Shown piece by piece: positions 21,562-28,860 of a stretch of 64,000 bases of DNA. A model generated the notes under the pieces. It had not been told where the DNA came from. It saw only the letters and a program-made list of their open reading frames with translations, and searched no databases. The translations under genes and the position numbers were made by a program. The stretch's first letter is position 1, and each line of letters begins with the position of its first letter. The stretch comes from an uncultured Candidatus Actinomarina sp. (GTDB lineage: Bacteria; Actinomycetota; Acidimicrobiia; Actinomarinales; Actinomarinaceae): assembly GCA_902566515.1 (NCBI GenBank), contig CACFIX010000002.1, forward strand, positions 19,566 through 83,565, written 5' to 3'.

Positions 21562-22653
21562 ATGAATCAAAGAAGATATGATATTGATGCATTGCGATCC
21601 ATAGCAATGTTTCTTCTTATTTTTTATCATCTCGGAATTTCATTCACTATGATTGCTCCACAAATACTCTTTGTTCAGAACAAAAGAATGTCAGGGGGTA
21701 TATGGCCGTTATTAAACATCATGAACAACTGGAGAATACCCCTTGTTTTCTTAATTGCAGGAGTCGCTCTAAGGCTTTCATTTAGCAAAAGAACTAAGAT
21801 GCAGATATTCAAAGAGAGAGCAAAAATCCTTATCTTACCCTGGTTATTTGGAACTCTTGTATTTTCAACCTCTTCTGCTTTGATTGTCGGAAGATATTAT
21901 AACTATTGGTGGCTAGACGAAATTAGCGAAGCTGTTTTCTTTGTTTTAGAGTATGACGGGCTACATCTATGGTTTTTGACTAATATTTTTGTTTACTGCA
22001 TAGTTCTTATTCCGATTTTGAATTTTATCTCAAAAGAAAACTTTATTGCTTCATTACTCAACAAACCTGGAGGCATATTTTTATTCGCAATTCCCATAAT
22101 AGCTGAGGGACACCTATTGAATCTATCAAGGTTTAAAACTGAAACATATGGAGATTATTACAACTCATATGCGCTTACAGACCATGGTTTTCTACTTGGC
22201 TTTCTATGGTTTTTTATAGGAATAATTCTCACTTCTCAGGGGGATGCATTTTGGGAATCGAATAAAAAAAATTGGCGGTTACATCTAGGATTAGGTGCAA
22301 CATCATATTTTTACAGATTTTTTAACAATTTCCTTGAAGATTACGCCTTAGACAACAGGCTGATAGCTTTTGAGTCTTTTAATTTTATTTTTGCACTTCT
22401 CGGCATTGCTGCAGTTTACCTAAACAAAGATTCACCACAATTAACATATTACAAAACAGCTGTTTTTCCTGTATATATTGTTCACCTGCCGGTACAAATG
22501 GCAGTCATGTATTTTTTTGCTGGATCAAACATTCATCCAATTATAAAATTTCCAATTGCTTTATTTTTAATTTGTTTCTTATCTCTTACTATTTACCATG
22601 CTGTAAAAAATATCAAACTATTAAGACCCTTGTTTGGTTTAAGGAATAAATAA
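21562..22653 (+). CDS. acyltransferase family 3 membrane protein
   Basis: 'DALRSIAMFLLIFYHLG' start motif and about 10 predicted TM segments. Confidence 0.7.
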   Translation: MNQRRYDIDALRSIAMFLLIFYHLGISFTMIAPQILFVQNKRMSGGIWPLLNIMNNWRIPLVFLIAGVALRLSFSKRTKMQIFKERAKILILPWLFGTLVFSTSSALIVGRYYNYWWLDEISEAVFFVLEYDGLHLWFLTNIFVYCIVLIPILNFISKENFIASLLNKPGGIFLFAIPIIAEGHLLNLSRFKTETYGDYYNSYALTDHGFLLGFLWFFIGIILTSQGDAFWESNKKNWRLHLGLGATSYFYRFFNNFLEDYALDNRLIAFESFNFIFALLGIAAVYLNKDSPQLTYYKTAVFPVYIVHLPVQMAVMYFFAGSNIHPIIKFPIALFLICFLSLTIYHAVKNIKLLRPLFGLRNK

Positions 22654-22655
22654 AT

Positions 22656-23162
22656 TTGAAAAAAGTAAATCTTTTAATTTTTATTCTTTTTATAAACTTA
22701 TGCTCAACAACCAGTAATGAAGGAGTAGCTTCTCTAACAGATACCACAACCACTTCTTTAGTAATTGCAGAAGAAGACTATCCGATCGTTTTAACTCAAT
22801 GTTTAAATGAAGAAAAGGGTTACAACATTGCAACCCCTTTTGATATACAAGACTTGAAAACAACTATTAGTCAATTAAGTAATACTAAAGATGAGGAGTC
22901 ACAGTTAGGAGAAGACATTAATTATTGTATAAATAAATATAATCTGTGGTCAGATTCATCTTCATCAAACCCAGATGATCTTGCAAAACTATATGATGAA
23001 AACCTTCAACTAGCGAAATGTTTAAGAGAAAAAGGCATCAACGTCTCAGACCCAACTCAACAAGAACCTAAAATAGATTTAAGTGAATTAGATAAATCAA
23101 AAGAGGAAATTTCTCCATTATTAAAAGAGTGTGGATATGGTGAATTAGGATATGAAAAATAA
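22656..23162 (+). CDS. acidic Cys4 lipoprotein, paralog 1 (two CxRExG..P...C modules)
   Basis: TTG start, lipobox 'INLC|S', Thr-rich linker, modules 'TQCLNEEKGYNIATP...NYC' and 'AKCLREKGINVSDP...KEC'. Confidence 0.7.
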   Translation: MKKVNLLIFILFINLCSTTSNEGVASLTDTTTTSLVIAEEDYPIVLTQCLNEEKGYNIATPFDIQDLKTTISQLSNTKDEESQLGEDINYCINKYNLWSDSSSSNPDDLAKLYDENLQLAKCLREKGINVSDPTQQEPKIDLSELDKSKEEISPLLKECGYGELGYEK

Positions 23163-23736
23163 TTGCTTAATAATCTTTATGTCTATTTTGATTGCTGCGT
23201 GTTCAGCTCCAGATAGTTCACAAGGTGTAGTTTCTACAGAAGATCTATCTACAGTCACTACAGTTACAACAATTGTAGAAAATATTATTGAAGACAATTT
23301 ATCACCTGAAGATGCCCAGCTTTTAATGGCAAGATGCTTAAGGGACAATGGCTATGACGTCAAAGATCCAAAAAATGACGAAGGTCTTAGAAGTGTTTTA
23401 ACGCCAATTTTTCTTGCAGCTAATGAAAAAGGAAGAACACAACTTTTTGAGACTATTCAAGCATGTGCAGAAGAAAACAATATACCATTAGGAGATAACG
23501 CAGATTTTGAAAATCCAGAAGATGTTGCAGATAGGCTCGATACAGAACTTGAGTTTGCTCAATGTTTGAGGGAAAAAGGTATAGAGGTTGAAGACCCAAG
23601 TGCAGACAGACCCCTAAGGCCAATTCTTGTTGGATTAGTACAGTCTGGACAATATCTTGAAGATCAAATTAGAGAAGCTGCTGCAGAGTGCTTTGATGAC
23701 CTCGGACTTGAACCGCCAGAACAAGGTGGAGGATAA
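23152..23736 (+). CDS. acidic Cys4 lipoprotein, paralog 2
   Basis: Lipobox 'IAAC|S', 'SQGVVSTED' linker, modules 'ARCLRDNGYDVKDP...QAC' and 'AQCLREKGIEVEDP...AEC'. Confidence 0.7.
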   Translation: MKNNCLIIFMSILIAACSAPDSSQGVVSTEDLSTVTTVTTIVENIIEDNLSPEDAQLLMARCLRDNGYDVKDPKNDEGLRSVLTPIFLAANEKGRTQLFETIQACAEENNIPLGDNADFENPEDVADRLDTELEFAQCLREKGIEVEDPSADRPLRPILVGLVQSGQYLEDQIREAAAECFDDLGLEPPEQGGG

Positions 23737-23761
23737 GACTAGTTTTCTTTATAATTTTCCT

Positions 23762-24361
23762 ATGTATAAAAAAGCATCAGTTGTATTAATCTTTTTAACA
23801 GCATGCTCTTTTTTTCAACAAGACGAGCAAGCTGTTGTCTCTGTTGCAGATACCGACAAAGGTAAAGAGGCAATTGCTTTGGGTGTTGACTTAGCAGACG
23901 AACGAGAAGAAATTTCAGATGAAGATGCTCCTTTAGTTCTTGTCCAATGTGTAAATGAGTCTGGTTATAAATTTAAAGAGCCAAAAAACTTTCTGGACCT
24001 ATATACGACTATAGCTTCATATTTTGAAACAATAACTGAACAAGAGGCACAAGAACTTTGGAGTATTATTGAGGAATGTGCTTTGAAGTATAACTTGTGG
24101 GGTGTGGCTGACGAAAATCAGTTTGAAGATCCTGTCCAGGTTTCAAAAGAGATTGATAGATCTCTATTCATGGCAAAATGTTTTCGAGAAAATGGCTATC
24201 CAAAAGTACCTGATCCAAACTATTTCAACAGAGAAGTTAGGTTAGATGCTTATATTGATGATGATTGGGAACTTAGAGAAGACGACCCAATTGTACAAAC
24301 ATGGCAAGCATGCGAAGAAAATCTTCCAGATGAATTAAAGGATGATGAATGGGATGAATAA
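23762..24361 (+). CDS. acidic Cys4 lipoprotein, paralog 3
   Basis: Start placed at ATG 23762 (MYKKASVVLIFLTAC|S). Modules 'VQCVNESGYKFKEP...EEC' and 'AKCFRENGYPKVPDP...QAC'. Shares 'KYNLW' with paralog 1. Confidence 0.7.
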   Translation: MYKKASVVLIFLTACSFFQQDEQAVVSVADTDKGKEAIALGVDLADEREEISDEDAPLVLVQCVNESGYKFKEPKNFLDLYTTIASYFETITEQEAQELWSIIEECALKYNLWGVADENQFEDPVQVSKEIDRSLFMAKCFRENGYPKVPDPNYFNREVRLDAYIDDDWELREDDPIVQTWQACEENLPDELKDDEWDE

Positions 24362-24424
24362 AAAACTTAATAAAATAATTTCACAGAAAGCGTGTAGATT
24401 TAATAAACTAATTGAATTAGAACA

Positions 24425-25990
24425 ATGATAAAAAATATATTTAAATTAAAAAACCTCTCCATACTAATTGCATTAGCCGGTTTGGCTTATGGCGGATATT
24501 ATTTTGGCACACAAAATACCGACACATCCTCTAATAATAAAACTTTAGAATTAACTACAGTTGCTATACAAAAAGGTGACTTAGCAAAAAAAGAAGAGTA
24601 CAACGGAACATTAAGGCAGACAGACAAAAAAGTTCTCAACTCACCAACCAATGGAGTTGTTACTTTTCTACCAAAAGAAGGGACAATAATTAACTTTGGA
24701 GAAATACTCTTCATTATTGACAATAAACCAGTAATACTGCTTGAAGGAAGTACTCCCTTTTATAGAACTCTTGATTTAAATTCGGATCCTGGTGTTGATG
24801 TAAAACAAGTTGAAGAAGCTTTAGTTTATTTAGGCTATGCAGAAAATTCTTTTGTACCAGATAATATTTTTGACGCCGAAACATCACAAATGCTAAATAA
24901 ACTATATATTGATTACGGAATTGAAACCAAATCAGAGATTACTCCAAGTGAACAAGTTTTAATAAACCAAAAAGAAAATGAAATCGAAAACCTTGAAGAA
25001 ATTGTTGCTGAAGGAGGAACAACTCTTAAAGAAGTTGATAATAAGAAAAAACTATTAGATGATGCAATAGAAAATGCAACAAAAGAAAATGCTACTTGGC
25101 AGGCTGCAGATGCAGAGATTGAAAGAATTCGTAATTTAATAGATGAGCTCAAATATGAATCTATGTCTGAAGAAACTCGAGCCGGGAAGAAGGCAGATTA
25201 TGAAGAAGACATTAAAGCACAAGAACGTATACAAAGCAGGGAAGCAGGAAAAGAATCTGGAATTGATGCTACAGAAGCCCTAGCTATTGAAAATGCACAA
25301 AAAGCTTATGAAGAAGCTCTTGAGTCTTACAATGAAGGTGTTAATAGAGAGGCTGAATTAGAAAAAGCAAGAGAAGAATTAGTTGAATTAAAATTAAGTG
25401 CTGTATCAGAAACATTTAGCCCTACTAATGCTTTTGCTTCAAAAACTTCAGTTATTGTTGGATCATACATTAATGACGTAGGGTCTGCGGTAGCTTTAAA
25501 TTCACCTTTATATAATATTTCTTCAACAGGAATAGAAGTAGTTTTTCAGGTAGATGCCTCAGACCAAGAAACAGTATCTCTTGGAGACAGTGTTCAGATA
25601 GAACTTCCAACAGACGAAAGAGTCCCAACAGTAATTACATTCATTGATCAAGTTGTGACACAAACTCAAGCAGGAGAATTTATAGAAGTAACGTTAGAAG
25701 TTCTTAACCCCGAAGAAATTGAAGCTTACGATCAAGCACCTGTAAAAGTATTTGTAACAACTGAAGTATCTCAAAATGTCTTGTATGTTCCTGTAAATGC
25801 ACTACTTGCATTGGCAGAAGGTGGTTATGCCCTAGAAGTTTATGATGGAGAAGTCGAGGGAGGTACCTTCGAGGGAGAGTCTGGAGTTGACACCAGCTAC
25901 GTTGCTGTAGAAATAGGAGTTTTTACAGACGGTTTTGTTGAAGTAAAAGGTAACATCTCAGAAGGTCAAATCGTAGTCGTTCCAAGATGA
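24425..25990 (+). CDS. HlyD/MacA-like periplasmic adaptor with peptidoglycan-binding domain
   Basis: N-terminal TM segment, PG_binding_1-like 'DVKQVEEALVYLGYAENSFVPDNIFDAETSQMLNKLYIDYGI', long coiled coil, C-terminal beta-barrel '...EGQIVVVPR'. 4-nt overlap with the ATPase gene. Confidence 0.7.
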   Translation: MIKNIFKLKNLSILIALAGLAYGGYYFGTQNTDTSSNNKTLELTTVAIQKGDLAKKEEYNGTLRQTDKKVLNSPTNGVVTFLPKEGTIINFGEILFIIDNKPVILLEGSTPFYRTLDLNSDPGVDVKQVEEALVYLGYAENSFVPDNIFDAETSQMLNKLYIDYGIETKSEITPSEQVLINQKENEIENLEEIVAEGGTTLKEVDNKKKLLDDAIENATKENATWQAADAEIERIRNLIDELKYESMSEETRAGKKADYEEDIKAQERIQSREAGKESGIDATEALAIENAQKAYEEALESYNEGVNREAELEKAREELVELKLSAVSETFSPTNAFASKTSVIVGSYINDVGSAVALNSPLYNISSTGIEVVFQVDASDQETVSLGDSVQIELPTDERVPTVITFIDQVVTQTQAGEFIEVTLEVLNPEEIEAYDQAPVKVFVTTEVSQNVLYVPVNALLALAEGGYALEVYDGEVEGGTFEGESGVDTSYVAVEIGVFTDGFVEVKGNISEGQIVVVPR

Positions 25991-26670
25991 AAACCAGTAC
26001 TAAAACTGTAATATCTATAAACAATATTTCCAAAGTTTACGAAGGTCCACCCCCCGTAAGAGCTTTAGACGGAGTATCTCTTGAGGTAAAGGAAGGTGAC
26101 TTTGTAGCGATAGTGGGTCAATCTGGAAGCGGAAAATCAACTTTACTTAATATGATTGGATTATTGGATAGCATCACAGAAGGGTCAATTGAAATTGAAG
26201 AAAGTGATGTTTCAAAACTTTCTGATAATGAACTTTCTAAATTTAGAGGAGAAAAAATTGGATTTATCTTCCAAAGTTTCTTTCTTTTACCTGGACTAAC
26301 TGCTCAAGAAAATGTGGCTGAAGGGCTTCTTTATCAAGGTATTTCAAGAACCAAAAGACTAGAAAAAGCAAAAGAAGTTTTAGATCAGGTAGGTTTAGGT
26401 GACAGATTAACTCACCTTCCAAAAGAATTATCTGGCGGACAGCAACAAAGAGTTGCAATAGCAAGAGCACTTGTTCAAGATCCAGCATTTGTGTTAGCAG
26501 ATGAACCAACTGGAAATCTTGATAAAGAATCCGGTATAAATATTTTAAACATCTTAAAAGACCTTAATAATCAAGGAAAAACGGTCATAATGATTACCCA
26601 CAACCAAGAACATGCAAATATGTTTAAAAAAGTTATCGAATTAGTTGATGGAAAAATTGTGAGCAAATGA
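25987..26670 (+). CDS. ABC transporter ATP-binding protein (MacB/LolD type)
   Basis: Walker A 'GQSGSGKSTLLN', signature 'LSGGQQQRVAIARAL', Walker B 'VLADEPTGNLD'. Confidence 0.9.
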   Translation: MKTSTKTVISINNISKVYEGPPPVRALDGVSLEVKEGDFVAIVGQSGSGKSTLLNMIGLLDSITEGSIEIEESDVSKLSDNELSKFRGEKIGFIFQSFFLLPGLTAQENVAEGLLYQGISRTKRLEKAKEVLDQVGLGDRLTHLPKELSGGQQQRVAIARALVQDPAFVLADEPTGNLDKESGINILNILKDLNNQGKTVIMITHNQEHANMFKKVIELVDGKIVSK

Positions 26671-27851
26671 AAAGAAAAAGACTAAAAACAAAAGATCTAT
26701 TCTTTGTAGCTCTATATGGAGTTCGCGCAAGGAAAGGAAGAGCAACACTTACCTCAATTGGGATAGGCATCGGTATTGCTGCAATAGTAGCTGTATCTGG
26801 AATTTCAGCATCTGGAAGAGCAGATCTTTTATCAACTCTAGAATCACTCGGCACAAATCTAGTAAAAGCATCACCACAAGCTGGATTTTTTGGGACTCAA
26901 GAAGAACTTCCAAAGGGTGTCTTGGGTATGGTTGAGAGAATTGGCCCTGTTCAAGAAGTTACTTCAACTACACAAACAGATCTCTTAGTTAGAAGAAGTA
27001 ATTTTATTTCTGAATTTGAAGGCGGAGGCATCTCAACAATAATTACTAGCGCCGAACTCCTAGATGTCATTGGTGGAGATTTAGCTGATGGAAGATTTAT
27101 TCAAGATGGACTATCTGATATCCCAGTAACGGTTTTAGGGAGTGTAACGGCTCAAAGATTGGGAATAAATAATTTAACTAAGCCTACAAAAATACTAATT
27201 GAGAATGAGTGGTTTGGTGTGGTTGGCATATTAGAAGAATTAAAAATTCACCCTGACCTAGACAGGTCTGTGTTTATTGGATATGGTGTTGCAAAAACCC
27301 TTTTTGATATTAACGAAGAACCTACAACTATATACCTAAGAGCTAACCCAACTTTTATCGAGGATGTAGTTGAAGTACTTGCTCCATCGATGAATCCAGA
27401 AAATCCTGACCAAGTTGAAGTTACGCGTCCGTCAGATGCACTTGAAGCACAACAAGCAGCTGAAGAAGCGTTTACTAATTTATTGTTAGGGTTAGGGTCT
27501 GTAGCTTTACTTGTTGGAGGGGTTGCCATAGCCAATGTTATGGTCATGTCTGTTCTAGAAAGAAGAATGGAAATTGGAGTTAGACGTTCAATTGGTGCAA
27601 CAAGAAGAGAGATTAGATATCAATTTTTATTAGAGAGCATAGTTTTGTCTGGTATCGGAGGTCTTGTAGGGGTTCTTTTGGGTACAGGCATTACACTGGG
27701 TTACACTAATTACACAAATATTGTATTCTCAATACCAGTATGGCAAATATTCGGCGCAGTGCTTCTAGCATTATTAATTGGAGCAATATCTGGGGTGTAT
27801 CCAGCAATAAAAGCTTCCAAAATTCAACCAGCAGAGGCAGTAAGAAAGTAA
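26667..27851 (+). CDS. ABC transporter permease (FtsX/MacB type with extracytoplasmic domain)
   Basis: N-terminal TM segment, about 200-aa extracytoplasmic domain, then the FtsX region 'MVMSVLERRMEIGVRRSIGATRREI' and 3 TM segments. Confidence 0.85.
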   Translation: MKRKRLKTKDLFFVALYGVRARKGRATLTSIGIGIGIAAIVAVSGISASGRADLLSTLESLGTNLVKASPQAGFFGTQEELPKGVLGMVERIGPVQEVTSTTQTDLLVRRSNFISEFEGGGISTIITSAELLDVIGGDLADGRFIQDGLSDIPVTVLGSVTAQRLGINNLTKPTKILIENEWFGVVGILEELKIHPDLDRSVFIGYGVAKTLFDINEEPTTIYLRANPTFIEDVVEVLAPSMNPENPDQVEVTRPSDALEAQQAAEEAFTNLLLGLGSVALLVGGVAIANVMVMSVLERRMEIGVRRSIGATRREIRYQFLLESIVLSGIGGLVGVLLGTGITLGYTNYTNIVFSIPVWQIFGAVLLALLIGAISGVYPAIKASKIQPAEAVRK

Positions 27852-28369
27852 GAATACTCTTTTTGTTATCAATTTTTTCTGCATGCACCATTGGGGGTGA
27901 AGAGTCACAAGGTGTTGTAACTATAGAATCTACAACAGAAACAACAACTGTAGATGAAGAAATAACTTTTGAGGAAGGTGTATTAGATTTTGCGCAATGT
28001 ATGAGAGAGGAGGGTGTTAATTTTCCAGATCCAACATTTGATATTGATGGGAACCCTCAGTTTGATAATTTAGAAATTGAAAATGAAGAAGAGTTTGAGA
28101 ACGCATTTGAAAATTGTGAAGATATATTAAGAAATGCACTTCCAGAACAATTTGACTTAGACCCAGAGGTTGAAGCCGCTTTGGTTGATGCATCTTTAGA
28201 ATTTTCTCAATGTATGAGGGAGCAAGGTATTGACTTTCCTGATCCAAAACCTGGCGAGTTTGGTTTCTTTGCCTTTAGAGATGCAGATATTGATTTTACT
28301 TCTGAAGCTGTGCAAAATGCTTTTGAAATTTGCCAACCTGAAAATCCACTAGAAGATTTAGACGACTAA
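27740..28369 (+). CDS. acidic Cys4 lipoprotein, paralog 4 (start codon unresolved)
   Basis: Lipobox 'IFSAC|T', 'SQGVVTIEST' linker, modules 'AQCMREEGVNFPDP...ENC' and 'SQCMREQGIDFPDP...EIC'. The only in-frame ATG (27740) overlaps the permease by 112 nt. The signal peptide proper begins near 27842. Confidence 0.6.
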   Translation: MANIRRSASSIINWSNIWGVSSNKSFQNSTSRGSKKVRILFLLSIFSACTIGGEESQGVVTIESTTETTTVDEEITFEEGVLDFAQCMREEGVNFPDPTFDIDGNPQFDNLEIENEEEFENAFENCEDILRNALPEQFDLDPEVEAALVDASLEFSQCMREQGIDFPDPKPGEFGFFAFRDADIDFTSEAVQNAFEICQPENPLEDLDD

Positions 28370-28860
28370 ATACCAGAATCAAAAAATCTTGGTTGGCTAA
28401 CTCCAATAGTTCTCCAACATGGCTTTTCTTCACATAACGTTTTTTCAAACACCCATGTAATCACAAAATAATTATTGTTTTTAGCCAATACTTTTACTTC
28501 GTAATGAATATTTTCATCACTCTCAAAAATGACTTCGTAAGAGTAATCTTTTAGATCAACAATGGAATCGTACGGTTCAGAAGTCAACATCATTGAAAAC
28601 CTTTCTTTGGGACCAGTTGCTTCACGGTTGTCTTCATGTGCATAATTCCATATAGTATCAATTGTTAAAGATGGATTTTCTGAAAAATTTTTATACGCAT
28701 TAAATATTTCAGTTAATATTTCTTCAGACGTAAGAGACTTTGTCTCTAAGACTTCATTTACAACAACAGTATCTTCAGAGGAATTTTCTGATACCACACC
28801 ATCTGTTGGTCCACATGAAATTACTAAAAGGAAAAAGAGAAGCTTTTTAGCCACCGACAA
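28366..28860 (-). CDS. lipoprotein with DUF4864-like (NTF2-like) domain
   Basis: TTG start, lipobox 'LVISC|G'. 'YAHEDNREATGPKERFSMMLTSEPYDSIVDLKDY' fits the DUF4864 pattern as I recall it. Confidence 0.5.
   Translation of the reverse strand: MSVAKKLLFFLLVISCGPTDGVVSENSSEDTVVVNEVLETKSLTSEEILTEIFNAYKNFSENPSLTIDTIWNYAHEDNREATGPKERFSMMLTSEPYDSIVDLKDYSYEVIFESDENIHYEVKVLAKNNNYFVITWVFEKTLCEEKPCWRTIGVSQPRFFDSGI

What the first reader, a model, noticed from the sequence alone, without database searches (positions are those of the whole stretch)
22656..28369. Four paralogous acidic Cys4 lipoproteins (eight copies of an unnamed CxRExG-x4-DP...C module) bracket a MacB-type exporter with a peptidoglycan-binding adaptor
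Seen in sequence:
- Four ORFs (22656-23162, 23152-23736, 23762-24361, about 27842-28369) each begin with a lipobox (LC|S, AAC|S, TAC|S, SAC|T).
- Each continues with a conserved (Q/E)(G/A)V(V/A)(S/T) stretch and a Thr/Ser/acidic linker.
- Each then carries two copies of a roughly 55-aa module. The module is hydrophobic-x-x-(A/S/T/V)-x-C-(L/M/F/V)-(R/N)-(E/D)-x-G-(Y/I/V)-x-(V/F/I)-x-(D/E/K/T)-P, then 25-45 residues, then a second Cys.
- The eight first-Cys motifs are TQCLNEEKGYNIATP, AKCLREKGINVSDP, ARCLRDNGYDVKDP, AQCLREKGIEVEDP, VQCVNESGYKFKEP, AKCFRENGYPKVPDP, AQCMREEGVNFPDP and SQCMREQGIDFPDP.
- Every protein has exactly four non-lipobox Cys and is strongly acidic.
- Three paralogs sit upstream and one downstream of a translationally coupled trio. 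The trio is a TM plus PG_binding_1 plus coiled-coil adaptor (24425-25990), a MacB/LolD ATPase and an FtsX/MacB permease.

I cannot assign the module to any named domain. I have a vague memory of 'CMRxxGVxxPDP' secreted proteins next to similar ABC loci in other Actinobacteria, but cannot verify it.

Inference: this is an extracytoplasmic module stabilised by one disulfide per repeat. It may be cargo, an accessory factor or a ligand/cation-binding partner of the exporter. Fourfold amplification is conspicuous in a genome this streamlined.
Basis: partly seen in the sequence, partly recalled or inferred. Interest (0 to 1): 0.75.

Follow-up and report, generated by a model that had tools for sequence, protein, structure and literature searches.

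The report
Four-cysteine lipoproteins tied to MacB pump
Four related, very acidic surface-anchored proteins in this tiny marine actinobacterial genome belong to a large, unnamed and unstudied protein family. In Actinobacteria and Chloroflexi this family is almost always encoded as the first gene of a cell-wall-anchored MacB-type pump, so it is probably a dedicated fourth part of that machine.

Summary
Four paralogous ORFs (22656-23162, 23152-23736, 23762-24361, 27740/27842-28369) each carry a signal peptide, a GV(A/V)(S/T) motif, a Thr/Ser/acidic linker and two about 60-aa modules. Each module has one invariant Cys pair. The motif occurs 8 times in the window against 0.02 in shuffles.

They flank a translationally coupled adaptor, MacB-type ATPase and permease. 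The module has no model in Pfam or NCBIfam and no relative in the PDB. It defines a large family: 3913 clusters at 50% identity.

Linkage to the pump is very strong:
- 61 of 67 genome loci chosen through the lipoprotein have adaptor, ATPase and permease directly downstream.
- 60 of 60 metagenome loci chosen through the adaptor have the lipoprotein gene upstream.
- In 96 of 140 loci its stop codon overlaps the adaptor start.
- A two-component system is usually adjacent but is absent from this window.

One copy per locus is the norm; four is the maximum seen.

Best reading: a dedicated extracytoplasmic partner (a tethered binder or presenter) of a peptidoglycan-anchored MacB machine. Cargo remains a serious rival. 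Disulfides, contacts and substrate are inferred. This is a new variant of a known kind and moderately to highly interesting.

The parts
22656..23162 (+). LpA. A 168-aa Cys4 protein with a TTG start and an atypical lipobox (INLC|S). It has a GVAS motif and two modules (22758-22955, 22977-23159). No ortholog is present in the related Actinomarina locus L081.
   Evidence: (E 1e-21 against a family HMM without window sequences)
23152..23736 (+). LpB. A 194-aa Cys4 lipoprotein with lipobox IAAC|S and a GVVS motif. Modules lie at 23293-23493 and 23521-23718. It overlaps LpA by 11 nt.
   Evidence: E 1e-34. AF2 model has pLDDT 81.7 overall and above 90 in the modules, with six helices.
23762..24361 (+). 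LpC. A 199-aa Cys4 lipoprotein with lipobox LTAC|S and an AVVS motif. Modules lie at 23906-24106 and 24137-24340. The start at ATG 23762 is supported by orthologs that begin MYKK.
   Evidence: (E 1.5e-19)
24425..25990 (+). Adaptor of the membrane-fusion-protein type (521 aa). It has an N-terminal TM anchor, a degenerate PG_binding_1 region (about residues 121-176), a roughly 135-aa coiled-coil insert (about 197-329) and a C-terminal beta-barrel part.
   Evidence: TIGR01730 1.3e-9, below cutoff; aligns in two blocks to a Streptomyces 'peptidoglycan-binding protein' that has PG_binding_1 plus HlyD_3
25987..26670 (+). ABC ATPase of the MacB/LolD/FtsE type (227 aa). It overlaps the adaptor gene by 4 nt.
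   Evidence: ABC_tran 9e-36; DarD, MacB and LolD models about 1e-66 to 1e-69, all below equivalog cutoffs
26667..27851 (+). MacB-type permease (394 aa). It has 4 TM helices, an extracytoplasmic domain of about 230 aa between TM1 and TM2, and a C-terminal FtsX domain. It overlaps the ATPase gene by 4 nt.
   Evidence: (MacB_PCD 1.7e-15, FtsX 2.5e-21)
27740..28369 (+). LpD. A Cys4 lipoprotein with a signal peptide from about 27842, lipobox FSAC|T and a GVVT motif. Modules lie at 27956-28144 and 28169-28360. It is the paralog closest to the wider family. The only canonical start is ATG 27740, inside the permease gene.
   Evidence: (E 3e-47)

Best explanation
LpA-LpD are four paralogs of a large, unnamed family of extracytoplasmic, usually lipid-anchored, acidic two-module all-alpha proteins. 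I call it the 'Cys4' family.

The family is the dedicated fourth component of a conserved envelope machine of Actinomycetota and Chloroflexota. The gene order is Cys4 protein, then a membrane-anchored MFP-type adaptor, then a MacB-type ATPase, then a MacB-type permease. In the adaptor, the usual hairpin position carries a peptidoglycan-binding domain. An OmpR-type response regulator and a HAMP histidine kinase usually sit alongside.

MacB-type transporters use ATP to do mechanical work on the outer face of the membrane.

Proposed mechanism (inferred):
- The Cys4 protein is held at the pump by its lipid anchor and a conserved GVA(S/T)(L) motif about 9 residues from the anchor.
- Its two Cys-stapled three-helix modules sit on a flexible linker of about 15-45 residues.
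- They act as the pump's extracytoplasmic partner, binding or presenting the substrate to the MacB periplasmic domain and adaptor for expulsion through or into the wall. The substrate is probably cationic or amphipathic and envelope-active.
- This is a 'sequester and expel' arrangement, functionally like LanI plus LanFEG plus LanRK.

In Ca. Actinomarina the regulator has been lost. The partner has diversified into an ancestral-type copy (LpD) and a derived clade (LpA-C), plausibly widening ligand range.
For: Shown:
- Paralogy and family membership.
- Family size: 3913 clusters at 50% identity, with 1163 at E <= 1e-10.
- 121 of 135 full-length representatives have a lipobox. 105 of 121 have exactly four further Cys. 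85% have a mature pI below 5.
- Modules are predicted with confidence as three-helix units, with the invariant Cys near the ends of helices 1 and 3.
- Synteny is 61/67 for loci picked through the lipoprotein and 60/60 for loci picked through the adaptor. RefSeq Streptomyces plasmids and metagenome contigs show the same order.
- The Cys4 stop codon overlaps an in-frame adaptor start by 4 nt in 96 of 140 loci. That is typical of subunits made in fixed ratio.
- The N-terminal V[AVP][ST][LVIA] motif is present in 163 of 234 relatives against 4.4 expected. It lies 8-10 residues after the lipid Cys.
- The motif is kept at the mature N-terminus in Chloroflexia versions that have an SPase I signal and no lipobox.
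- The permease has MacB topology.
- The adaptor is an MFP with a PG-binding domain.
- The lipoprotein stays with the pump when the two-component system is divergent, downstream or absent, as in this window.

Established knowledge:
- MacB-type pumps act on substrates already outside the cytoplasm, and Gram-positive MacAB homologs can have extra partners such as YknW (PMC5985334).
- LanI lipoproteins cooperate with LanFEG transporters (PMC4828448).
Against: - There is no direct evidence of physical contact. The only apparent lipoprotein-adaptor fusion (P0215) is a frameshift read-through.
- No ligand-binding site or metal site is conserved. The invariant residues look structural.
- Four diverged paralogs for one pump fits several clients as well as it fits alternative subunits.
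- Acidity is not universal: about 10% of relatives have pI above 7.
- Five or six of 67 loci are orphan copies away from any pump.
- There is no sequence or fold similarity to LanI, so that analogy is purely functional.
- The synteny samples are the best 80 hits of each scan and so are biased toward Acidimicrobiia-like sequences.
Confidence: 0.45

Rival explanations
1. Cargo. The Cys4 proteins are the substrates. After Sec export, lipidation and disulfide formation, the MacB machine extracts them from the outer leaflet and passes them through the PG-anchored adaptor to the wall, cell surface or medium. This would be a monoderm counterpart of LolCDE, of Aat/dispersin or of STII export by MacAB. 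The GVAS motif next to the anchor would be the export signal.
For: - Known MacB-type systems export Sec-delivered, disulfide-bonded or lipidated small proteins: STII and dispersin (PMC5985334) and the Aat lipoprotein pathway (PMC7943197).
- There is a conserved motif right next to the lipid anchor.
- Several diverged paralogs serve one pump in Actinomarina.
- The modules are small helical units joined by flexible linkers.
Against: - Near-universal single copy as first gene, with a 4-nt stop/start overlap to the adaptor, is more typical of a subunit than of cargo.
- Chloroflexia members lack the lipid anchor, so a strictly Lol-like extraction cannot be the conserved mechanism.
- A widespread pump regulated by a two-component system, whose only cargo is one non-enzymatic acidic protein, lacks an obvious purpose.
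- The mature proteins (about 15-20 kDa) are larger than the roughly 10 kDa upper range cited for MacB cargo.
Confidence: 0.22
2. Co-sensor. The lipoprotein is an accessory extracytoplasmic sensor for the adjacent histidine kinase, like HbpS-SenS, LpqB-MtrB or CseA-CseC. It would report envelope or redox state through its Cys pairs, and the pump would simply be the regulated output.
For: - A two-component system is adjacent in at least 40 of 67 loci.
- The kinases have an extracytoplasmic loop of 135-165 aa that could bind a partner.
- Invariant Cys pairs could be redox-active.
Against: - The gene is always co-directional and coupled with the adaptor. The two-component system is often divergent, sometimes downstream and sometimes absent.
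- This window and L081 keep three or four lipoproteins with no two-component system detected in 64 kb or in the locus.
- Loci picked through the adaptor have the lipoprotein in 60 of 60 cases.
Confidence: 0.1
3. Target of mechanotransmission. As FtsEX acts on EnvC, PcsB or RipC, the MacB-type complex would not pump anything. It would use ATP to switch the conformation of the Cys4 protein and the PG-bound adaptor, controlling a cell-wall process.
For: - MacB-family members include non-transporting mechanotransducers such as FtsEX (PMC5985334; PMC10694151).
- The adaptor binds peptidoglycan, and most orthologs lack a long hairpin tube.
Against: - No hydrolase or other enzyme domain is present in the Cys4 protein, the adaptor or a conserved neighbour.
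- The permease scores better against MacB than against FtsX models.
- The C-terminal part of the adaptor is of the MFP type.
Confidence: 0.1
4. Coincidental neighbours. The four genes are generic acidic lipoproteins, for example cation buffers, with no functional tie to the pump.
For: - They are the most acidic proteins in the window.
- A few orphan copies exist elsewhere in other genomes. One lies next to a HupE/UreJ metal transporter.
Against: Two-way synteny of 61/67 and 60/60 across classes and phyla, plus overlapping stop and start codons.
Confidence: 0.03

Closest known systems
Gram-positive MacAB-like pumps: YknWXYZ (Bacillus) and Spr0693-0694-0695 (S. pneumoniae)
   Same: Both have a MacB-type ATPase and a 4-TM permease with a large extracytoplasmic domain. 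Both have a TM-anchored MFP adaptor in a monoderm with no outer-membrane duct. YknXYZ also has an extra non-canonical partner, YknW (PMC5985334, PMC5768738).
   Different: The extra partner here is a Sec-exported two-module Cys4 lipoprotein, not a polytopic membrane protein. The adaptor carries a PG_binding_1 domain where the alpha-hairpin normally sits, and most orthologs have no long hairpin. The distribution is Actinomycetota and Chloroflexota rather than Firmicutes.
LanI + LanFEG + LanRK lantibiotic immunity modules
   Same: A small lipoprotein is encoded with an ABC exporter that clears a membrane-active compound from the outer leaflet, under an adjacent two-component system. The lipoprotein and the transporter cooperate (PMC4828448, PMC5786555).
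   Different: There is no sequence or fold similarity. LanFEG is not a MacB-type transporter and has no adaptor. No lantibiotic genes are linked here. This is a functional analogy only.
LolCDE and the Aat (AatPABCD) / dispersin-CexE system
   Same: These are MacB-type machines whose clients are lipid-modified proteins delivered by Sec (PMC5985334, PMC7943197).
   Different: Those act in diderms, with LolA/LolB or a TolC-like duct and a dedicated acyltransferase. Here the hosts are monoderm lineages and no such genes are in the locus. Some family members lack a lipobox.
BceAB-BceRS antimicrobial-peptide sensing and detoxification modules
   Same: An FtsX-family ABC transporter is genetically paired with a two-component system (PMC5985334).
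   Different: The Bce permease has 10 TM helices and its kinase lacks a sensor domain. Here the permease has 4 TM helices, the kinase has an extracytoplasmic loop of 135-165 aa, and there is an adaptor and a lipoprotein.
Small all-alpha disulfide-stapled binding proteins (insect PBP/GOBP, saposins, mycobacterial DUF732)
   Same: They are short helical extracytoplasmic domains held by conserved Cys pairs. There are sporadic weak Pfam hits: one relative scores 26 bits on PBP_GOBP and one scores 1e-3 on DUF732.
   Different: Hits occur in no more than 4 of 107 members and are mostly below threshold. The Cys pattern and module length differ, and no Foldseek match was found. This is not evidence of homology.

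Membership tests
MacB-type (type VII) ABC transporter | Permease with 4 TM helices, a large extracytoplasmic domain between TM1 and TM2 (MacB_PCD) and a C-terminal FtsX domain | tested here: met
   MacB_PCD 1.7e-15 and FtsX 2.5e-21, both above cutoff. TM helices at 28-46, 279-297, 320-338 and 352-370.
MacB-type (type VII) ABC transporter | Cognate ABC ATPase of the MacB/LolD/FtsE clade, encoded next to the permease | tested here: met
   ABC_tran 9.4e-36. Best NCBIfam models are DarD, MacB, LolD and FtsE at 1e-64 to 1e-69, all below equivalog cutoffs, so no specific ortholog can be assigned. The ATPase and permease genes overlap by 4 nt.
Membrane-fusion / periplasmic adaptor proteins (HlyD/MacA) | Lipoyl and beta-barrel core recognised by family models | tested here: inconclusive
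   The window adaptor scores 37.5 bits on TIGR01730 against a cutoff of 94.9. A Streptomyces ortholog passes HlyD_3 (32.7 against 22.2), and window residues 330-521 align to it.
Membrane-fusion / periplasmic adaptor proteins (HlyD/MacA) | Alpha-hairpin docking to a TolC-like outer-membrane duct | not tested
   No duct gene was noticed in any locus, but none was specifically searched for. Most orthologs (about 350 aa) have PG_binding_1 and no long hairpin. The window adaptor has a 135-aa coiled-coil insert.
PG_binding_1 (PF01471) domain proteins | Score above the Pfam gathering threshold | tested here: inconclusive
   The window adaptor scores 13.2 bits against 23. Orthologous adaptors score 36-55 bits. 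Window residues about 121-176 align to that domain.
Bacterial lipoproteins (Lgt/Lsp substrates) | Signal peptide ending in a lipobox [LVI][ASTVI][GAS]C | tested here: met
   LpB IAAC, LpC LTAC and LpD FSAC fit. LpA INLC has Leu at -1 and is atypical. 121 of 135 family representatives have a lipobox. Actual lipidation cannot be tested here.
Unnamed 'Cys4' two-module family (defined here) | Full-length match to a family HMM built without window sequences; two modules each with an invariant Cys pair and the xC[ML]R[ED]xG[VIY]..DP core | tested here: met
   E values from 3e-47 to 1.5e-19 for the four ORFs. Invariant and nearly invariant columns in 107 sequences are C, R, G, D-P and C in each module.
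Unnamed 'Cys4' two-module family (defined here) | One intramodule disulfide per module | not testable with these tools
   The Cys are invariant and lie near the C-terminal ends of helices 1 and 3 of each module.
LanI-type immunity lipoproteins | Sequence or fold similarity to NisI/SpaI-type proteins | tested here: not met
   There is no significant Pfam, NCBIfam, PDB-sequence or Foldseek match of any kind, and the modules are all-alpha.
Lol-type lipoprotein cargo | A lipid anchor present on every client | tested here: not met
   The two Chloroflexia copies in L033 have SPase I-type signals with no lipobox Cys but keep QVA(T/S)L at the mature N-terminus.
BceAB-BceRS modules | 10-TM permease and an intramembrane-sensing kinase without an extracytoplasmic domain | tested here: not met
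   The permease has 4 TM helices. The linked kinases have loops of 135-165 aa between TM1 and TM2.
DUF732 / CHCH / PBP_GOBP | Family model matched above threshold by most members | tested here: not met
   At most 4 of 107 members hit any of these at E <= 0.01. A single relative (P0316) reaches 26 bits against 22 on PBP_GOBP.

The most novel reading that the evidence does not exclude
Monoderm Actinobacteria and Chloroflexi possess a dedicated protein-release pathway. A MacB-type machine with a peptidoglycan-anchored adaptor would recognise the GVAS motif next to the anchor of its own Cys4 proteins. It would extract them from the membrane and deliver them into or through the wall. This would be a Lol/Aat-like lipoprotein trafficking route in bacteria thought to have none. 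In Ca. Actinomarina it would serve four different clients.
Probability: 0.18. Interest if true: 0.85.

Novelty: new variant of a known kind. Interest (0 to 1): 0.62.

Why it matters
MacB-type machines in Gram-positive-type bacteria are poorly understood. It is unclear what their adaptors do without an outer membrane. This locus type shows two things that have not been described in anything I could find.

First, the adaptor's hairpin position holds a peptidoglycan-binding domain. Second, there is a near-obligate fourth component. That component is a disulfide-type helical lipoprotein family with thousands of members but no Pfam or NCBIfam model, no solved structure and no paper that I could find.

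It is kept, and amplified fourfold, in one of the smallest free-living marine genomes. It is also present in Streptomyces, Nonomuraea and other cultivable, genetically tractable actinomycetes. The question of what it does can therefore be tested directly. The answer bears on envelope defence, antibiotic and antimicrobial-peptide resistance, and possibly lipoprotein trafficking in monoderms.

Tried and rejected
- A profile of the four window proteins hit a designer pentatricopeptide protein in the PDB (6een, E 2e-6). The hit vanished with the 107-sequence profile and with Foldseek. I rejected it as helical-repeat noise.
- The first AF2 run used only 4 sequences and was poor (pLDDT 62). It was replaced by the 107-sequence run.
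- Foldseek against the PDB gave a best E of 2.0, so no fold assignment was possible.
- The NCBIfam hits of relatives (cytochrome c551, LpqN, WKL lipoprotein and others) match only signal-peptide or low-complexity regions. I rejected them.
- P0215 looked like a Rosetta-stone fusion of lipoprotein and adaptor. It is a frameshifted read-through: Arg-rich junk is followed by the adaptor's own Met and TM helix.
- An ATA (Ile) codon at 27854 was considered as the LpD start. Population variants replace it with Val, Thr or Leu codons, so I rejected it.
- Orphan family copies show no common alternative neighbourhood.
- The promoter and terminator scan around the locus gave counts at shuffle level.
- Seven literature searches found no paper on this family or operon type.

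Full report
**1. What is in the sequence**

The window is AT-rich, about 33% G+C. Its nearest named relative among the fetched loci is a single-cell genome of Candidatus Actinomarina (L081). L081 is about 91% identical in DNA across the 191-base stretch I aligned, and it has the same gene order.

Between 22656 and 28369 the + strand carries seven tightly packed genes:
- LpA, 22656-23162
- LpB, 23152-23736
- LpC, 23762-24361
- an adaptor, 24425-25990
- an ABC ATPase, 25987-26670
- a permease, 26667-27851
- LpD, which ends at 28369

The adaptor-ATPase and ATPase-permease junctions each overlap by 4 nt.

**2. Check of the observation**

The four Lp proteins are significantly similar to one another. 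BLASTP E-values run from 1e-18 to 1e-3, and LpD is the most distant. Each has a signal peptide, four Cys after the lipobox Cys, and two modules with C-x37-44-C spacing.

A regular expression for the first-Cys motif matches the six-frame translation of the whole window 8 times. Shuffled sequence gives 0.02 matches on average.

An HMM built from 103 other family members (no window sequences, though some rows are near relatives from marine metagenomes) finds the four ORFs at E = 3e-47 to 1.5e-19, and it finds nothing else in the window.

Three of the four (LpB, LpC, LpD) have the highest Asp+Glu content among 60 ORFs in the window, and all four have pI 4.05-4.29 against a median of 5.63.

Three details need correcting:
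- LpD has no ATG, GTG or TTG near the signal peptide. The only canonical in-frame start is ATG 27740, which lies 112 nt inside the permease gene. Orthologs are almost all called as 209 aa. The Ile codon that might serve as an unusual start is not conserved in population variants.
- LpA's lipobox has Leu at position -1.
- The PG_binding_1 match of the window adaptor is below threshold.

**3. The flanked trio**

The permease has MacB_PCD and FtsX domains and four TM helices. An extracytoplasmic domain of about 230 aa lies between TM1 and TM2. The ATPase scores best against the DarD, MacB, LolD and FtsE models, all below equivalog cutoffs. It is therefore a generic MacB-type (type VII) ABC system.

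The adaptor aligns in two blocks to a Streptomyces 'peptidoglycan-binding protein' that has strong PG_binding_1 and HlyD_3 domains. Window residues 27-196 cover the PG-binding region, and residues 330-521 cover the MFP beta-barrel part. The 135 residues in between are a coiled-coil insert that the Streptomyces protein lacks. In this adaptor family a PG-binding domain occupies the position where MacA-type adaptors carry the hairpin that contacts TolC.

**4. The module is unnamed but the family is very large**

- The four proteins have no significant Pfam or NCBIfam match, and neither do 107 diverse relatives. At most 4 of 107 relatives hit any one Pfam family, and only weakly.
- PDB sequence profiles give nothing credible.
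- With a 107-sequence alignment, AlphaFold2 models LpB with pLDDT above 90 across both modules. Each module is three helices. The first Cys sits near the end of helix 1 and the second near the end of helix 3. The N-terminal 50 residues are disordered.
- Foldseek against the PDB finds nothing; the best E is 2.

A profile of the eight modules finds 3913 clusters (50% identity) at E <= 1e-3 and 1163 at E <= 1e-10. Most are 170-230 aa with two modules.

Family statistics:
- 121 of 135 full-length representatives have a lipobox.
- 105 of 121 have exactly four further Cys.
- 85% are acidic.

Database names are only 'hypothetical protein', 'lipoprotein' or 'secreted protein'.

One three-module relative (P0281) carries a precomputed Pfam accession, PF28567.1. 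That accession is absent from the local Pfam copy and from the literature library. The other 119 relatives in the same table have no domain or an unrelated one, so it is unlikely to be a general model of the family. I could not identify it.

**5. Linkage to the pump**

Two metagenome or genome contigs examined first showed this order: response regulator, HAMP kinase, Cys4 protein, PG_binding_1 protein, ABC_tran, MacB_PCD/FtsX.

*Genome scan through the lipoprotein.* A scan of one genome per species returned 586 confirmed hits, and the best 80 were kept. They come from Acidimicrobiia, Thermoleophilia, Actinomycetes (Nonomuraea, Nocardioides, Asanoa, Allokutzneria), Nitriliruptoria, Coriobacteriia and Chloroflexota.
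- Of 67 loci with at least 4 kb downstream, 61 have adaptor, ATPase and permease directly after the Cys4 gene.
- A two-component system is adjacent in at least 40.

*Metagenome scan through the adaptor.* This is the reverse test. All 60 loci with enough upstream sequence have a Cys4 gene just upstream.

*Coupling.* In 96 of 140 loci the Cys4 stop codon overlaps an in-frame adaptor start by 4 nt.

RefSeq-annotated Streptomyces plasmids show the same order.

Both samples are the best-scoring 80 of each scan, so they are biased toward the queries. The result is still unambiguous.

**6. Copy number and origin of the four copies**

Copies per locus are:
- Genome loci: one copy in 71, two in 6, three in 2.
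- Metagenome loci: one copy in 58, two in 2.

Four copies is the highest number seen. L081 has LpB, LpC and LpD but no LpA.

In a neighbour-joining tree without support values, LpD groups with the general high-G+C family. LpA, LpB and LpC form a separate clade with other low-G+C marine sequences. LpD is also the best match to the family HMM.

This suggests LpD is the ancestral-type copy, moved to the 3' end of the operon. LpA-C would be a lineage-specific radiation occupying the usual 5' position.

No two-component system was detected anywhere in the 64-kb window.

**7. A conserved docking-type motif**

V[AVP][ST][LVIA] occurs within 30 residues of the lipid Cys in 163 of 234 relatives, against 4.4 expected from shuffled linkers. 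It typically lies 8-10 residues from the Cys.

The two Chloroflexia copies in L033 have no lipobox Cys and what looks like an SPase I cleavage site. They keep QVA(T/S)L at the predicted mature N-terminus. The motif therefore matters independently of lipidation, and it sits close to the membrane surface.

**8. How it most likely works**

*Established background.* MacB-type transporters do not move substrates across the cytoplasmic membrane. They use ATP to do work on the outer face. Their clients include Sec-exported, Dsb-oxidised STII, dispersin, lipoproteins (Lol), antibiotics and peptides. Gram-positive homologs have adaptors without an outer membrane and sometimes extra partners such as YknW (PMC5985334; PMC5768738).

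*Shown here.* The Cys4 protein is extracytoplasmic. It is almost always co-encoded and translationally coupled with the adaptor. It has a membrane-proximal conserved motif, a flexible linker and two rigid helical modules with invariant Cys pairs. No catalytic-looking residues are conserved.

*Inferred.* It is a stoichiometric extracytoplasmic partner. It binds or presents the substrate, or otherwise couples to the MacB periplasmic domain and the PG-anchored adaptor. The general acidity points to cationic ligands. The functional analogy is LanI plus LanFEG plus LanRK (PMC4828448). I put this at about 0.45.

*Main rival: cargo (about 0.22).* Precedents are the Aat, Lol and STII systems (PMC7943197). 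The motif next to the anchor fits, and so do multiple paralogs per pump. Weighing against it are the subunit-like gene coupling, the anchor-less Chloroflexia members and the protein size.

*Other rivals.* A kinase co-sensor role (about 0.1) is weakened because the gene follows the pump and not the two-component system, and because it persists here without one. An FtsEX-like non-transport role (about 0.1) lacks any linked enzyme. Chance neighbourhood is excluded.

**9. Novelty and verdict**

The pump belongs to a known kind. Two features are not described in anything I could find in seven literature searches or in Pfam, NCBIfam or the PDB: the Cys4 family as a near-obligate fourth component, and an adaptor whose hairpin position holds a PG-binding domain.

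I rate it a new variant of a known kind, with interest about 0.6. Three reservations remain: disulfides, physical contacts and substrate are still inferences.

Noticed in passing
window 27740-27860: LpD has no canonical start codon next to its signal peptide. The only in-frame ATG (27740) lies 112 nt inside the permease gene and would add about 36 residues before the signal peptide. Orthologs are almost all called as 209 aa, and the reading frame stays open in L081 too. This may be a real long gene overlap or an unusual (re)initiation event.
   Followed up: partly
window 28366-28860 (- strand): A convergent 164-aa ORF looks like a lipoprotein (LLVISC|G) and has its own 'DGVVSE' stretch 5 residues after the Cys. 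Its 3' end overlaps the LpD stop by 4 nt. It is conserved next to LpD in L081 (9218-9709) and has only a weak DUF4864 hit.
   Followed up: no
window 21562-22653: An acyltransferase_3 gene (OpgC/MdoC-like, PF01757 2e-15) ends 2 nt before the LpA start, on the same strand. It may be co-transcribed here, but it is not at this position in L081 or in other loci.
   Followed up: partly
P0281 (Streptosporangium) and P0001/P0003 (marine): Three-module variants were created by an exact internal duplication of one module. P0281 alone carries the precomputed Pfam accession PF28567.1, which is not in the local Pfam library and which I could not identify.
   Followed up: partly
L019 and L055 (adaptor ORFs); L056, L062, L065, L066, L073, L079 (about 12-13.8 kb): Some adaptors contain two tandem PG-binding units. 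Several loci have a second adaptor-like gene directly after the permease.
   Followed up: no
L033 8001-8579 and 8693-9322 (Chloroflexia): Two tandem family members have no lipobox Cys and an apparent SPase I-type signal peptide. Both keep QVA(T/S)L at the predicted mature N-terminus.
   Followed up: partly
L049 7902-9460: An orphan family copy, away from any pump, lies directly upstream of a HupE/UreJ-type metal transporter gene. This is a single case.
   Followed up: no
L003 13226-16081: A CsoR-CopZ-CopA copper module lies about 1.6 kb downstream of the pump locus, after an intervening lyase gene, in one soil contig. This is probably coincidental.
   Followed up: no
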